From NCBI GenBank assembly GCA_951406725.2, contig OX597819.1, positions 100,440,001 to 100,504,000 on the forward strand: a stretch of DNA of 64,000 bases, in the 5' to 3' direction. This DNA is from Octopus vulgaris (taxonomy: Eukaryota). The position numbers and the translations under genes are program-made. Positions 13,193 through 61,090 of this stretch are shown one piece after another; the first letter of the stretch is position 1, and every line of letters begins with the position of its first letter. The notes beneath the pieces were generated by a model. The model made no database searches, was not told the DNA's origin, and saw only the letters and a program-made list of their open reading frames with translations.

Positions 13193-13455
13193 AGAAAAAA
13201 AGTCAAAATAGAAAATGCTAAAATAATTTTATAAAGAACATTTCAGTACCGGTTTCAGTCATTTTGAGACCTTTTCAACTGTAACGATTAAATAATTAAA
13301 TTTAGAAAAATTAAAAGAAATGTTTTTTTAAAGGAATATTTGTATAGTGTTCAAATATAAGTGGCATTTTCCTTGTTTCTGCCTTGCTCTGTCTCTCTTG
13401 TTCACACTTGTGGGTTCGAGGTCGTTGTGAATTCTTGGTAGGGAAGAAGAAGAAG
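13192..13455 (-). mobile_element. Short HHR-bearing element, same family as 47531-47766, flanked by microsatellites
   Basis: About 240 bp match the reverse complement of 47531-47766. Confidence 0.85.
13241..13284 (-). ncRNA. Minimal hammerhead, U3:A8 variant
   Basis: cag-TTGAAAA-ggtc tcaaaat gact-GAAAC CG GTA-ctg, with palindromic ACCGGU stem III. Stem I is short. Confidence 0.6.
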
Positions 13456-46017: not shown

Positions 46018-46589
46018 CTTTGTGTATGTATGGATGTTTTTAAACGCCGCTCCCTTTCTTACTTAAAAGAATTTAAGTCATAAATGAAGAACTCGTTTTA
46101 CTTCTTCTTAGTAAATTATTGACTTTTTAAAAGATGTAATCCAATTCTCCTTGGTTTTTGAAGAGGGGAATATTCCACATTTAACTAATAATGAAGTCTC
46201 TTTCTGGCATTTTCATTATCCTTAGTGTACGTAATAAATAAATATATGTCTATGTATGTATGTATGTATGTATGTATGTATGTATGTATGTATGTATGTA
46301 TGTATGTATGTATGTATGAATGTATGTATGTATGAGTATGCATGTATGTGTTACTTTGACTGACCTATGCGACACGTGTTTCTAAATATTTCATCATCTA
46401 TAAATTCTGTCTTTCAAAATCTATCATTCTCTTTCCCTAATTCCATATCTCTCTTTATCTCTCTATCTTTTTATCTATCTATGTATCGCTGTATATATGC
46501 ACACACACACACACGTAGATGCATGCATGCATACATATATACATACACACGTTTACACAGACATACACACAAATACACATATATGTATA

Positions 46590-46628
<39 letters not shown>

Positions 46629-46631
<3 letters not shown>

Positions 46632-47276
46632 AGGAAAAATTTTTTAAAAATGCAGAATGCTCAAATGAAAGAAAATTTTAATAAAATGAGAAAATGATAA
46701 AATATATAAATATATATTTATTCAACCGGTTTTCGTCATTGTATGACTTGTCAAGAATATTTATGTTTTAAGAAGTTTTTTTAAAAATTAGAAAGGGGAA
46801 AAAAAAGAAAATTGCATTGTTTTTTGTAAAAGAATAATGATAAAAATGTACAAAAATTAAAAAATAAGTTCTCCGATACATTGTGAGTTCGTTGTGTATC
46901 TTGAGTTTTATGGTTGTTTACCAAAAATTACCTTGAGGTGTTAAGATCCAAAGGGATTAAGAGCATGTGATGTGTTGTGTTGTTAAATTCAGCATGTTGC
47001 AGGACAGGAAGTAGTAGTAGTAATTGTGGTCCTAGTTCTTCAGTTCCTGTGTTGTGAGTAAGGGAGACAACTCTTTTGAGTTCTTTCTTAAAACATAAAT
47101 ATTCTTGACAAGTCATACAATGACGAAAACCGGTTGAATAAATATATATTTATATATTTTATCATTTTCTCATTTTATTAAAATTTTCTTTCATTTGAGC
47201 ATTCTGCATTTTTAAAAATTTTTTCCTTACTTATCATTTCTCCACGTGCGGTCAACACAACCCCACCATTTATTGA

Positions 47277-47278
<2 letters not shown>
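46629..47278 (+). mobile_element. (TA)n-flanked element with about 145-bp inverted arms, each carrying an HHR
   Basis: 46629-46773 is the reverse complement of 47085-47230. Confidence 0.9.
47100..47140 (+). ncRNA. Minimal hammerhead, U3:A8 variant (mirror copy at 46719-46759, minus strand)
   Basis: tattc-TTGACAA-gtca tacaa tgac-GAAA ACCGG TT-gaata. There is one extra A after GAAA. Confidence 0.65.
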
Positions 47279-47308
<30 letters not shown>

Positions 47309-47314
<6 letters not shown>

Positions 47315-47499
47315 AAGGAGCTTCTACAGGACTAGAACTGTTTCATTCAAAAGAAATCATCAGGAAGCGCTTCCTGATGATTTCTTTGAATGAAACAGTT
47401 CTAGTCCTGTAGAAGCTCCTTCTATAAAATAAATTAATTTACTCTGCTATGTATTGAGTACCTTATTTACTGTGGTTAACCCCGACTTAACCCGGGGCC

Positions 47500-47502
<3 letters not shown>
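47309..47502 (+). mobile_element. (TA)n-flanked element beginning with a 119-bp loopless palindrome
   Basis: 47309-47368 mirrors 47369-47427 with one 1-nt indel. The centre is gaagc|gcttc. Confidence 0.9.
47369..47416 (+). ncRNA. Type-I hammerhead ribozyme, canonical core (mirror copy at 47320-47368, minus strand)
   Basis: gcttc-CTGATGA-tttc ttt gaat-GAAACAG ttctagtc CTGTA-gaagc: 5-bp stem I, 4-bp stem III, GUA triplet. Confidence 0.8.
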
Positions 47503-47530
<28 letters not shown>

Positions 47531-47531
<1 letters not shown>

Positions 47532-47764
47532 CTACGACCTCGAACCCACAAGAGTAAACAAGAGAGATAGAGACAGGCGGAAACAAGGAAAATGCCACTT
47601 ATATTTGAACACTGTACAAATATTCTTTAATAATAAAATTTCTTTTAATTTTTCCAAATTTAATTGTTTTCCATAATTACAGTTGAAAAAACCTCAATGA
47701 CTGTAACCGGTACTGAAATGTTTCTATAAAATTATTTTAGCATTTTCTATTTTGACTTTTTTTT

Positions 47765-47766
<2 letters not shown>
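47531..47766 (+). mobile_element. (TA)n-flanked element, same family as 13192-13455, with a decayed U3:A8 HHR at 47678-47717
   Basis: cag-TTGAAAA..gact-GTAAC CG GTA-ctg. Confidence 0.8.
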
Positions 47767-47795
<29 letters not shown>

Positions 47796-47798
<3 letters not shown>

Positions 47799-48002
47799 CG
47801 GAGATGTATTTGCATAGCACGTGACCTGATCTGATATCGTGTGTTGAAAGAAAAACAATTGAAGCGTGGAAGGTATTTATAAGCCATTTAAATGCACACA
47901 AAAACCGCTAGCTTCACTTCAACATTTAAATTTAATCTGCCACAATATTTTCCTCGCCTTGAGACCACGAACTGATCAGTGACAAAATTCCGTGCTGCAT
48001 TG

Positions 48003-48005
<3 letters not shown>
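47796..48005 (-). mobile_element. (TA)n-flanked element with a decayed HHR-like motif at 47938-47984
   Basis: tgtca-CTGATCA-gttcg..cgag-GAAA ATAT TG-tggca. The core has mismatches, so it is probably inactive. Confidence 0.5.
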
Positions 48006-48046
<41 letters not shown>

Positions 48047-48102: not shown

Positions 48103-48529
48103 ATGTGTGTATGTGTGTATGTGCGTGTTGCCTGTTTGTGTTTTGGGTATGTGCGTGTGTTTTTCCATCACCACCGCTTGGGTTCCGGTGCTGGTGTATT
48201 TCCGTACACTCGACTTAGCAGTTCGGGAAAAGAGGTCGCTTAAATGAGTGCCAGGCTAAAAAAAACTAAATACTGGGATTGATTCATTCGACACAAAATT
48301 TTGTATAAATGTTTGATCCTAAGCCATCAATATGTTTCGGTGTCTGATATTTTTGAAGAATACTTAGACATTCTATTCAGCAAGATACTGACACGGTAAG
48401 AGACCCTTTTCACCATATGCCAATCAAAGATGAATTACCATTTTAAAGCCGATGACAATGGAGGGTCCGAGGCATGGCCACAGCCCTTTGGCTTAGAAGC
48501 AGAAAAGCAAAAATTTATAATTATATATA

Positions 48530-48930
48530 GGCGCAGGAGTGACTGTGTGGTAAGTAGCTTGCTTACCAACCACATGGTTCCGGGTTCAGTCTCACTGCGT
48601 GGCACCTTGGGCAAGTGTCTTCTACTATAGCCTCGGGCCGACCAAAGCCTGGTGAGTGGATTTGGTAGACGGAAACTGAAAGAAGCCCATTGTATATATG
48701 TATATATATATGTGTGTGTGTGTATGTTTGTGTGTCTGTGTTTGTCCCCCTAGCATTGTTTGACAACCGATGCTGGTGTGTTTACGTCCCCGTTACTTAG
48801 CGGTTCGGCAAAAAAGAGACCGATAGAATAAGTACTGGACTTACAAAGAATAAGTCCCGGGGCCGATTTGCTCGACTAAAGGCGGTGCTCCAGCATGGCC
48901 GCAGTCAAAATGACTGAAACAAGGGAAAAA
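48530..48930 (+). mobile_element. tRNA-derived SINE family B, full copy
   Basis: Head GGCGCAGGAGTGACTGTGTGGTAAG..GGGTTCAGTC, CORE-like CACCTTGGGCAAGTGTCTT, internal TA/TG tract, tail GGCGGTGCTCCAGCATGGCCGCAGTC. Confidence 0.85.
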
Positions 48931-49734: not shown

Positions 49735-49791
<57 letters not shown>

Positions 49792-49858
49792 CGGTGAGTC
49801 ACAGAATAATTTCTCTTTGTATAACAGTCAATTTTCATAGCATTTTTTCCGATGGCCG

Positions 49859-49919
49859 GATAACTGAAGTGATGGCAGCGTGGGTTTCCACCTTGGCATC
49901 CGAAACTTGGTGTTTTATC
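49859..49919 (+). ncRNA. Hammerhead-like motif in a roughly 170-bp (TA)n-flanked insert (49791-49957)
   Basis: gataa-CTGAAGT-gatggcagcgtgg gttt ccaccttggcatcc-GAAAC TTGGT GTT-ttatc. A9 is altered. Confidence 0.6.
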
Positions 49920-49954
49920 ATGGCTACCGAATAATTGTTACATATTTCATTTAC

Positions 49955-50004
<50 letters not shown>

Positions 50005-53033: not shown

Positions 53034-53063
<30 letters not shown>

Positions 53064-53261
53064 AAGTAGATAAATGAATTATCTTATTACGGATTATTCA
53101 AATGATAACCGATACCTGGGTAGCAAAAATCACAACAGAAAAAGCACGGTTGGACTCCTTATTCAATCCGAATTAGGGACTTTGCAGCCTTTGAAACATA
53201 TGTAGAAAATAATAAAAAGGAATTTTGTTAAGTCTTCGTTCAGCTCCATTTCTTCATACAC

Positions 53262-53311
<50 letters not shown>

Positions 53312-53386
53312 CAGGCATTAATCCATTAGCTCTGCGTCAGAAAGACTTGAAAAAAATACAGAAAAAAGTGAAAGGGTTACACTGAA

Positions 53387-53424
53387 CTTTCCTGACGAAG
53401 GATTGAATCTGAAACGTTGGATTG
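53387..53424 (+). ncRNA. Hammerhead-like motif in a short insert between (TA)n and (TCTA)n
   Basis: ttc-CTGACGA-agga ttgaa tct-GAAAC GTT-gga. Stem I is weak. Confidence 0.45.
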
Positions 53425-53465
53425 TCCACAGCAAGTTCACTGTCCTCCCTTTCACTTTATGTATA

Positions 53466-53565
<100 letters not shown>

Positions 53566-59589: not shown

Positions 59590-61090
59590 CTTGAAATTCG
59601 AAACTAGGAGACTTTTCATAGATTTGGACTGTCATTTGCTCTTTATGATGGTATGCGTTTGGAGGATTAAATTCATTCTGTGGTCCCTTTTTAGCAGGGA
59701 AATGTTTTGGAGGATGGTTTCGAAGGCTTCATTGTTAAAAGGGTTGTATGGTAGGGCTTTTGGTTGTAAATCCTTCTTTAATTTGGGATGTTTGAGTTCG
59801 TGAATGTTGAGGCGTAGGGTACGTTGAAAGCATATATCAATTTGTGATGGTGCGTAGTTCCTAGTGACGAGCGTATCCTTCAGTTCATGTAGTCGTGTGT
59901 CCTTGGTGCTTGTATTAGAAACTATAGTAGAAATCCTCTTTGCTGGTTTGAAAGGGATATTCATTCTAGCGTGTCTGGGGTGGCATGAGGTGAACGGTAG
60001 ATATTGTTTGGAGTTCGAGGCCTTATAGTATATATCTGTTTTTATTTCGTTGTTGGATTTCTTAATGAGGGTGTCAAGTTGCTGATGGCTATATTCCATC
60101 GGGAATTGAATGCTTACGTCAAGTCCATTTATAAGTGCTTGAATTTCTTTAAGTCTCTCTATACTTCCATGCCAAACAATGAAACTGTCATCCAGGTACC
60201 ACTTCCAGTTATTTTCAATGTAGAGGTAGTAAGGGTTGCCGCATTTTTCTAGTACCTTACGATAAAGACTGATTTCTAGATATCCCATGACTAGGTTAGC
60301 AAAGGAGGGGGCCATTCTCGTACCCATCGCAGTCCCCGATTTTTATCGATAGAAGTTGTATTTGAAGACAAAGTATTTATTCCCAAGATGAATTTTAGCC
60401 CTTCTATTACGAATTATTTTTTGATGCGATGTGAGAGTTCGTTGGCGTGATTCTCTTGCCAGAATTGAATTGCCTCTATTCCTAGGCTGTGTGGATGTTA
60501 GAATAGAGGCTGACTACATCGAAGGATACTAGTAGGGTGTTTTTTGTTTATTGTTTTAGGGAGGTGATTGAGCATATCCAGGTCATCCCTTATGTAGATT
60601 TTGAGATGCTTGAGGAATGATTTAAGAGGGTATCTAAAACGTTTCTGAGGCAGTGGGTTTCATATGTAAGACCTGCTATTATAGGTCTCAATTTGAAGTC
60701 ATTTGGAGTAGGGGCTTTGATTATTATGTCTGTGGCTATCCTGCATGCGTTACGTATTTTCTCACTTTTGTGTATCTTGGGAATATCGTAGAATTGACTG
60801 GATTTACATTTGAAATTGGTCATATAATCGTATTCCTTGTCGATGAGCCCCTTCTCTGTATATGTTTAATATGGATTTTAGGTTCCTCATTAATTTCTGT
60901 TGAATGTATTGCTTGAGATTTTCATAATATGTTGTCTCTTCTAATATAGATAGTACAAAAGTTGTATAGAATACCGTGTTCATTAAGACAACTGCACTCC
61001 TTTTATCAGCCTCTTTGATTGTTATTGTTTTGTCACTTTTTAATTGGTTCAGCTCACGCCATTCTTTTTTTGCTTGTGTATATTTTGATA
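59590..61090 (-). pseudogene. Penelope-like element reverse transcriptase, frameshifted, with no GIY-YIG domain visible
   Basis: In order: IKEADKRSAVVLMN, FYDIPKIHK, LRPIIAG, LVSFDVVSLYSNI, GTAMGTRMAPSFANL.MG, W.WYLDD.F, KTDIYYK..QYL.FTSCHP. These are diagnostic PLE RT and thumb motifs. Confidence 0.9.

What the first reader, a model, noticed from the sequence alone, without database searches (positions are those of the whole stretch)
46629..48005. Four different HHR elements chained by (TA)n spacers
Seen: (TA)n-[46629-47278]-(TA)n-[47309-47502]-(TA)n-[47531-47766]-(TA)n-[47796-48005]-(TA)n. The four inserts are unrelated in sequence and each has an HHR or HHR-like motif. Inference: these are serial insertions into one TA tract. 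Each event splits or regenerates the target, a possible feedback that would help explain the TA richness of this genome.
Basis: partly seen in the sequence, partly recalled or inferred. Interest (0 to 1): 0.7.

Follow-up and report, generated by a model that had tools for sequence, protein, structure and literature searches.

The report
Four retroelement ends stacked in microsatellite
Four fragments of different high-copy jumping-gene families, each family carrying a hammerhead ribozyme motif, sit side by side between TA repeats; they likely landed one after another in a shared preferred target, a known habit, and although each landing likely leaves two full-size TA repeats, this would add under a tenth of the genome's TA repeats.

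Summary
The block is real: five pure TA spacers (29-38 bp) separate four inserts. E1-E3 are truncated or folded-back 3' ends of Penelope-like elements (PLEs) whose RT plus GIY-YIG ORFs I found elsewhere (E1 and E3 Neptune/Nematis-type and related; E2 Hydra-type). E4 is a non-coding 206-bp unit with PLE-style ends. All four families carry minimal hammerheads (U3:A8, C3:G8, U3:A8, G3:C8). Here the E3 and E4 motifs are broken; those of E1 and E2 are predicted to be locked in hairpins. The block is no composite repeat: two junctions occur once genome-wide, the third twice with different flanks, and ages differ (0.7-10% divergence). Feedback is real but weak. Young E2 insertions have two full-size TA flanks more often than plain splitting predicts (50 of 67 against 35.5). 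Yet a second hammerhead element beside a young insertion is no commoner than background (16/177 against 87/1098), about 60-325 four-chains are expected by chance, and half of TA tracts touch no recognised repeat. Empty alleles could not be tested. The closest published layout is plant SaTar arrays. The scan noted similar stacks elsewhere in this genome.

The parts
46596..46628 (.). (TA)n spacer 1, 33 bp, at the end of a longer TA/CA compound microsatellite
46630..47100 (-). E1 inverted, tail-less arm: last 471 nt of the 3' UTR/pLTR of a young Neptune/Nematis-type PLE; hammerhead copy at 46719-46759
   Evidence: 96-98% to other copies; lies about 300 bp behind the RT + GIY-YIG ORF in L121/L122
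47085..47278 (+). E1 direct arm, 146 nt (99.3% to the inverted arm) plus a 47-nt one-sided tail (47232-47278); U3:A8 minimal hammerhead at 47100-47140 with one extra A in helix III
   Evidence: tail motif occurs 476 times in the genome
47279..47309 (.). (TA)n spacer 2, 31 bp
47309..47502 (+). E2 fold-back of a Hydra-type PLE 3' end: 60-nt inverted arm, direct arm and about 66-nt tail; C3:G8 hammerhead at 47369-47416 (+) and 47320-47368 (-)
   Evidence: parent ORF in L143/L144 with DKT, CxCX5C and no CCHH; tail motif 1,841 times
47503..47531 (.). (TA)n spacer 3, 29 bp
47532..47766 (+). E3: 5'-truncated, tail-less 3' end of an older PLE related to E1; U3:A8 hammerhead at 47680-47715, broken in this copy
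   Evidence: ORF upstream in L008, L009, L025; 17 of 235 positions differ from the family majority
47767..47796 (.). (TA)n spacer 4, 30 bp
47797..48005 (-). E4: about 206-nt non-coding unit with a 56-nt tail (47797-47853); family hammerhead has a G3:C8 core, broken in this copy (47936-47987); parent element not found
   Evidence: 25 of 209 differ, about 5 at the edge; core motif 1,477 times
48006..48043 (.). (TA)n spacer 5, 38 bp

Best explanation
The block consists of three truncated or folded-back ends of protein-coding Penelope-like retroelements and one short non-coding hammerhead element, which likely inserted independently and at different times into one (TA)n tract, each event likely leaving two usable TA tracts through a short target duplication followed by slippage regrowth. 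Shown: family membership and copy numbers, the parent ORFs of E1-E3, the inverted-arm-plus-tail anatomy, the TA preference of E1 and E2, junction uniqueness, and the excess of two-sided long flanks. Inferred: the order (E4, then E3, then E2 and E1 in unknown order, from divergence of about 10%, 7%, 1.5% and 0.7%); cutting of TA by the GIY-YIG nuclease and target-primed reverse transcription from both strands (from PMC11167929 and PMC8557442); mobilisation of E4 in trans by a PLE; duplication of about 6-17 bp plus regrowth as the source of the new tract. Because the target lies between elements and not inside them, the array is side by side and not nested. The hammerheads are passengers of the element ends and are predicted to have no joint function here. 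The loop gain is small: about 120,000 insertions among about 1.6 million TA blocks.
For: Parent ORFs: RVT_1 E=8e-8 plus GIY-YIG and a CX4CxxC linker for E1; 37-51% identical ORF upstream of E3; Hydra-type ORF with E2 ends in the same loci. TA preference: at least 12 bp pure TA behind 95% of 57 E2 tails and 76% of 38 E1 tails. Independence: E3-E4 junction 1 match and E2-E3 junction 1 match, both the window; E1-E2 junction 2 matches, the other with different flanks and only an 18-bp E1 stub (0.4 expected by chance); none of the three adjacencies in 116 other loci. No clustering excess: 16/177 against 87/1098, Fisher P=0.66. Regeneration: both flanks at least 12 bp in 50 of 67 genome-order E2 insertions against 35.5 expected for a uniform cut given the observed sums, P=2e-5. 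Target duplications of 6-13 bp at 7 of 24 listed E4 monomers in complex DNA and 14 bp at E2 locus L068 (read). Plant precedent: MuTAnT empty sites 9 TA units, occupied sites 15 per flank (PMC4486113, passages).
Against: No empty allele was seen: both read-laying runs skipped the TA repeats and no record spanned the block. The excess of two-sided flanks could also come from a nuclease that cuts centrally in long tracts, with no net gain. Left and right flank lengths are uncorrelated (rho=0.005), so duplication of the whole tract is not shown. Several interrupted flanks show no matching duplication (L342, L370). E4 is only loosely TA-targeted (22% of 27 tails; but 4 of 5 loci in the genome sample) and has no identified parent. 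With unclassified repeats included there is a mild clustering excess (38/177 against 166/1098, P=0.036). The five spacers are more alike than random draws give (range of 9 or less: P=0.007 against young flanks, 0.066 against all runs; post hoc). Family labels of flank clusters were assigned by my inspection.
Confidence: 0.8

Rival explanations
1. Strong feedback: integration itself duplicates the whole TA tract or the telomerase-related RT or repair synthesis adds TA units, so that hit tracts become hotter and PLEs drive the genome's TA richness.
For: Two-sided long flanks; five near-equal spacers here; L300 and L067 share an interruption followed by long TA on both sides; (TC)n after 4 of 38 E1 tails and (AC)n after some E2 tails; TAFTA expansion in maize as cited in PMC5907723.
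Against: No left-right correlation; no excess of neighbouring hammerhead elements; no chain of three or more in 980 kb (34 single, 8 double); hammerhead families touch 14% of TA blocks, SINEs 24%, and 50% touch no recognised repeat.
Confidence: 0.12
2. The TA spacers grew afterwards: elements landed at short AT-rich sites next to each other (for E4 and E3 especially) and the TA runs expanded from short seeds such as target duplications or the element's own terminal ATATAT.
For: E4 often sits in AT-rich non-repeat DNA with short duplications; the tail-less E3 end continues as ATATAT in tailed copies.
Against: E1 and E2 are almost always in TA on both sides while only 1-2% diverged; (TA)n targeting is published for Hydra and Neptune PLEs (PMC8557442, passages).
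Confidence: 0.08
3. The block is one composite repeat, amplified as a unit or by segmental duplication.
For: Such composites exist in this genome: a 2.2-kb Helitron-like unit carrying an E4 fold-back makes up 14 of 30 genome-order E4 matches.
Against: Junction patterns match once, once and twice with different context; flanks 48130-48520 and 46350-46447 have single-copy depth in contigs; inserts differ in age. The patterns are exact, so a diverged duplicate could be missed.
Confidence: 0.03
4. The four ribozymes form a selected RNA-processing array.
For: Motifs on both strands within 1.4 kb.
Against: E3 and E4 cores are broken; E1 and E2 are predicted to fold as 145-bp and 59-bp hairpins that pair each motif with its own complement (-275.8 and -109.8 kcal/mol); minimal PLE hammerheads barely cleave as monomers (PMC4209133, parts 1-2).
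Confidence: 0.01

Closest known systems
EN+ Penelope-like elements, Neptune/Nematis type (Craig et al. 2021, PMC8557442: passages and section 15)
   Same: RT with DKG motif, C-terminal GIY-YIG with CxxC inside, CX2-5CxxC linker, 5' truncation, inverted 5'-truncated copy, one-sided tail, (TA)n preference (E1, E3).
   Different: Neptune versus Nematis not resolved (no tree built); E1 tail is 47 nt against the 30-40 bp described; chains of different families are not described in the passages read.
Hydra-clade PLEs (PMC8557442, passages of section 11)
   Same: E2 parent has DKT, CxCX5C linker, no CCHH, CxxC and CxH near the C-terminus, a hammerhead and (TA)n insertion.
   Different: Its 3' UTR holds a 0.5-1.35 kb TA/TG-rich array, so copies are longer than the under 3 kb described; tail about 66 nt.
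Minimal type I hammerheads of metazoan PLEs (Cervera and de la Pena 2014, PMC4209133, parts 1-2 of 4)
   Same: Palindromic short helix III, U3-A8 variant, extra nucleotide before stem II (E4), single or opposite-strand motifs in truncated copies.
   Different: E4 has a G3:C8 core, not mentioned in the parts read (the swap partly restores cleavage in PMC11167929); E2 lacks the G10.1-C11.1 pair; E1 has a bulged A in helix III.
SaTar arrays of guayule, rice, sorghum and citrus (Valdes Franco et al. 2018, PMC5907723, parts 1, 3, 4 of 6); MuTAnT (PMC4486113, passages)
   Same: Unrelated elements side by side, never nested, joined by TA microsatellites; empty sites are TA tracts; flanks longer than empty sites.
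   Different: Those are Mutator-type DNA transposons in plants with about 30% linked elements; here retroelement ends in an animal with about 8-9% linked, near the independent expectation.
Animal non-LTR retrozymes (PMC7229834, passages; bioRxiv 10.64898/2026.07.22.740005, part 1 of 5)
   Same: E4 is short, non-coding, hammerhead-bearing and likely PLE-mobilised.
   Different: E4 copies are monomers or inverted pairs with a fixed 5' end; no head-to-tail tandem or circular permutation was seen in 59 loci.
SSR spread by TE carriage in penaeid shrimp (PMC7878876, passages)
   Same: Penelope elements and other TEs carry microsatellites to new sites, as the E2 parent and the SINEs do here.
   Different: That paper concerns carried repeats, not regenerated targets.

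Membership tests
EN+ PLE (E1, E3) | Single ORF with PLE-type RT and C-terminal GIY-YIG | tested here: met
   In parent copies, not in the window: RVT_1 E=7.7e-8, GIY-YIG E=0.005 (below cut-off) in L122; E3-linked ORFs 37-51% identical
EN+ PLE (E1, E3) | CX2-5CxxC linker and CCHH in the nuclease (Neptune/Nematis) | tested here: met
   CX4CxxC before the GIY-like motif and CxxC inside it in the L122 translation; read by eye for E1; E3 parent is frameshifted and was not checked residue by residue
EN+ PLE (E1, E3) | Clade placement by RT phylogeny | not tested
   No reference set at hand
Hydra-clade PLE (E2) | DKT, CxCX5C linker, no CCHH, C-terminal CxxC and CxH | tested here: met
   L143/L144 translations against the text of PMC8557442; Pfam gives no RT hit; 21.5% to the E1 ORF
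PLE insertion unit | 5' truncation, inverted copy, tail on one side only | tested here: met
   E1 and E2 in the window; E3 and E4 families in other copies
Minimal type I hammerhead | Conserved core with paired positions 3 and 8, three helices | tested here: met
   Family copies with intact core: E1 49/50, E2 99/109, E3 17/19, E4 41/51 exact (counts need intact anchors; E4 includes the amplified composite). Not met in the window copies of E3 and E4
Minimal type I hammerhead | Self-cleavage | not testable with these tools
   No assay; fold predicts hairpin sequestration for E1 and E2
Non-LTR retrozyme (E4) | Head-to-tail tandem units or circular RNA | tested here: not met
   Monomers or inverted pairs in 29 best-hit and 30 genome-order loci; RNA not examined
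SaTar array | Unrelated elements joined by TA, none interrupting another | tested here: met
SaTar array | Members are Mutator-like DNA transposons with TIRs | tested here: not met
   Members are PLE ends; the inverted arms are of variable length and carry a one-sided tail
SaTar array | Empty alleles are TA tracts | tested here: inconclusive
   repeats skipped, nothing spans the block

The most novel reading that the evidence does not exclude
Penelope-like integration copies or synthesises the whole (TA)n target at each insertion (long staggered cut, or telomerase-like repeat addition by the RT), so one 30-bp tract became five 30-bp tracts here; with the TA/TG arrays that the Hydra-type family carries in its 3' UTR, PLEs would be self-seeding makers of microsatellites in this genome.
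Probability: 0.15. Interest if true: 0.65.

Novelty: new variant of a known kind. Interest (0 to 1): 0.3.

Why it matters
The parts are known: PLE ends with hammerheads, (TA)n targeting, and side-by-side arrays through microsatellite targeting in plants. What this locus adds is an animal, retroelement version of the SaTar layout and a measurement: targets appear to be regenerated (two full-size flanks per insertion), but the effect is small and stacks arise at about the independent rate. The open question it touches is how PLE integration treats a microsatellite target, which PMC8557442 calls undefined. Thousands of 98-99% identical E1 and E2 insertions make that testable with polymorphic alleles. 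I found no paper on mixed PLE chains in TA tracts in searches; subscription journals were not covered and supplements of PMC8557442 were not read.

Tried and rejected
Rfam: no hammerhead family over the block at E<=10; hits were microRNA models on hairpins and repeats. Empty alleles: three raw-read runs gave 11, 17 and 0 laid reads and contig runs skip TA repeats; no joint across the block, so no test. Whole-tract duplication by left-right correlation: not seen (rho 0.17, n=46; 0.005, n=67; the sets overlap). First neighbour count used a library contaminated with SINE sequence and missed families; replaced by flank clustering, from which I removed two double-counted entries (11/91 and 7/88 became 10/90 and 6/87). 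Both-sides-hammerhead blocks in the sample looked enriched (9 against 3.45, P=0.009), but 5 of the 9 have the same family on both sides by my inspection; 4 are mixed. The tail-less E2 row includes misassigned ends and was not used. My first view that E4 avoids TA came from best-hit loci; genome-order and sample loci show a partial preference. Parent ORF for E4: none found; one unrelated hit in 59 loci. Two checks (arm identity, ORF distance) failed on register and were taken instead. MITE reading of E1/E2: rejected because arm lengths vary and the arms lead into RT ORFs.

Full report
Observation. The window lies at G000:C6:100440001-100504000 of a 2.8-Gb genome; its repeats look octopus-like (recalled, and stated in earlier scan notes; not pursued). 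Five pure TA runs of 33, 31, 29, 30 and 38 bp bound four inserts at the stated coordinates. TA runs are common: 98 of at least 12 bp in the window, about one per kb and 2.7% of bases in 98 evenly spaced 10-kb stretches. Rfam gives no hammerhead family over the block. A strict descriptor finds only E2. Aligning 27-29 other copies of each family shows a minimal type I hammerhead in all four majorities: U3:A8 (E1, E3), C3:G8 (E2), G3:C8 (E4); intact cores in 49/50, 99/109, 17/19 and 41/51 copies with intact anchors. The window copies of E3 and E4 are broken, and E1 and E2 are predicted to fold into long hairpins that pair each motif with its complement.

What the inserts are. E1 is a 471-nt inverted arm plus a 146-nt direct arm with a 47-nt tail. 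Longer copies lead, about 300 bp upstream, into an ORF with RT, a CX4CxxC linker and a GIY-YIG domain: a Neptune/Nematis-type PLE by the motifs in PMC8557442 (passages). E3 is the 5'-truncated end of a related, older family: ORFs 37-51% identical to that of E1 lie upstream in 3 of 29 loci, followed by (TTC)n. So the inserts are not all unrelated. E2 is a 60-nt fold-back with a tail of about 66 nt; its parent ORF has DKT, CxCX5C and no CCHH, the Hydra-clade signature. E4 is a 206-nt unit with a fixed 5' end, a 56-nt tail and frequent inverted partners; no parent ORF was found. Inverted copies and one-sided tails are the published PLE footprint (PMC8557442; PMC11167929, parts 1-2 of 4). Exact motif counts genome-wide: E1 tail 476, E2 tail 1,841, E4 core 1,477.

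Composite or serial. None of 116 other loci shows E1-E2, E2-E3 or E3-E4 adjacency. Junction patterns match once (E3-E4), once (E2-E3) and twice (E1-E2). The second E1-E2 site has other flanks and only an 18-bp E1 stub fused to a different hammerhead element; 0.4 such sites are expected by chance. Divergence from the family majority is about 0.7% (E1, 3 of about 450 after edge positions), 1.5% (E2), 7% (E3) and 10% (E4), giving the likely order E4, E3, then E2 and E1. Composites do exist: a 2.2-kb Helitron-like unit carrying an E4 fold-back makes up 14 of 30 genome-order E4 matches, but it is not this block.

Target preference. Pure TA of at least 12 bp follows 95% of 57 E2 tails, 76% of 38 E1 tails, 60% of 20 E3 ends and 22% of 27 E4 tails (E4 set biased to best hits; 4 of 5 E4 loci in the genome sample are TA-flanked). 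In the sample 10 of 15 hammerheads have TA within 200 bp downstream against 12% of random positions.

Clustering. Flank clustering of all loci held and my labelling of clusters give 87 of 1,098 TA-block sides in the sample touching a hammerhead family (7.9%). The far side of the TA flank of young E1/E2 insertions is a hammerhead family in 16 of 177 cases (9.0%, CI 5-14%; P=0.66). With unclassified repeats added it is 38/177 against 166/1,098 (P=0.036). The sample holds 34 single and 8 double segments and no longer chain (loose criterion). Scaling gives about 1.6 million TA blocks, about 120,000 insertions and 61-325 four-chains for p of 0.079-0.12, or 0.0014-0.007 per window; over the 1,250 windows noted in this genome that is 2-9. 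The block is the expected tail. Earlier notes report stacks of three to five elsewhere (unchecked).

Regeneration. Plain splitting of tracts drawn from the sample predicts both flanks at 12 bp or more in 32-63% of cases; 39 of 46 E2 insertions have that. In 67 of 90 genome-order E2 loci with both ends in view, 50 do, against 35.5 expected for a uniform cut given their own sums (P=2e-5). Median sum is 59 bp against a median tract of 20 and a length-weighted mean of 46. Left and right lengths are uncorrelated. Target duplications of 6-13 bp are seen at 7 of 24 listed E4 monomers and of 14 bp at E2 locus L068; some interrupted flanks do not match. The simplest reading is a short duplication that leaves a TA seed on both sides, then slippage regrowth. 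Central cutting of long tracts or synthesis during integration are not excluded. The near-equal spacers here (P=0.007-0.07, post hoc) are the one hint of whole-tract copying.

TA richness. Of 549 TA blocks, 78 touch a hammerhead family, 67 are the internal tract of one SINE family, 66 touch other SINE-like ends, 61 other repeats and 277 nothing recognised. One new tract per insertion is about 8% of tracts. Carriage is a second route: the E2 parent has a 0.5-1.35 kb TA/TG array with 2-8 pure TA runs in its 3' UTR, as described for shrimp Penelope elements (PMC7878876, passages). Old, unrecognised insertions could raise these shares.

Empty alleles. Not obtained: the read-laying tool skips TA repeats and coverage was under one-fold per raw run.

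Comparison and verdict. The layout matches plant SaTar arrays (PMC5907723, parts 1, 3, 4 of 6), where empty sites are TA tracts and flanks expand (also PMC4486113, passages), but the members here are retroelement ends. The hammerheads are the PLE type of PMC4209133 (parts 1-2 of 4). PMC13282606 (part 1 of 3) lists active Penelope families in an octopus without discussing TA targeting in the part read. I found no paper on mixed PLE chains (searches; supplements not read). Verdict: a real, well-explained stack; new variant of a known kind; interest 0.3.

Noticed in passing
L248:757-2973 and 13 other loci among L243-L272: A 2.2-kb unit with TC...CTAG ends (Helitron-like, label recalled), inserted in TA tracts, carries an E4 fold-back inside a SINE's TA tract; 14 of 30 genome-order E4 matches, 95-98% alike.
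   Followed up: partly
L088, L128-L130, L143, L144: The Hydra-type parent of E2 has a 0.5-1.35 kb TA/TG-rich array in its 3' UTR with 2-8 pure TA runs, so it exports its own kind of target; 10,590 first-look candidates for its C-terminal peptide.
   Followed up: partly
L008, L025, L003, L028: The E3 parent carries (TTC)n arrays between ORF and terminal segment.
   Followed up: no
L395:1330-1780 (G000:C3:156989746): Independent chain: TA, another hammerhead element fused directly to an 18-bp E1 tail stub, TA, E2 fold-back, TA; the stub may record a template switch.
   Followed up: partly
L312, L316, L323, L328, L338: The last two bases of the tail are reiterated before the TA run: (TC)n after 4 of 38 E1 tails, (AC)n after an E2 tail; RT stutter or later slippage.
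   Followed up: no
window 47231, 47427, 47766: The tail-less ends of E1, E2 and E3 fall at TA-like words of the element, suggesting primer microhomology, unlike the non-homologous start reported in PMC11167929.
   Followed up: no
window 47936-47987 (-): The E4 family has a natural G3:C8 hammerhead core at high copy number.
   Followed up: partly
window 47362-47375: Most short E2 copies fold back within a few bases of hammerhead stem I, with slightly different junctions: a recurrent truncation point.
   Followed up: no
window 13195-13428, 49791-49956, 53062-53545, 57302, 59644-60626: A second E3 copy, further TA-bounded hammerhead-like inserts (one two-element chain) and a PLE RT remnant 42-44% identical to the E1 ORF.
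   Followed up: no
window 48530-48930: An abundant SINE-like repeat with an internal TA/TG tract; this family accounts for 67 of 549 TA blocks in the sample, and its 5' end also often follows TA.
   Followed up: partly
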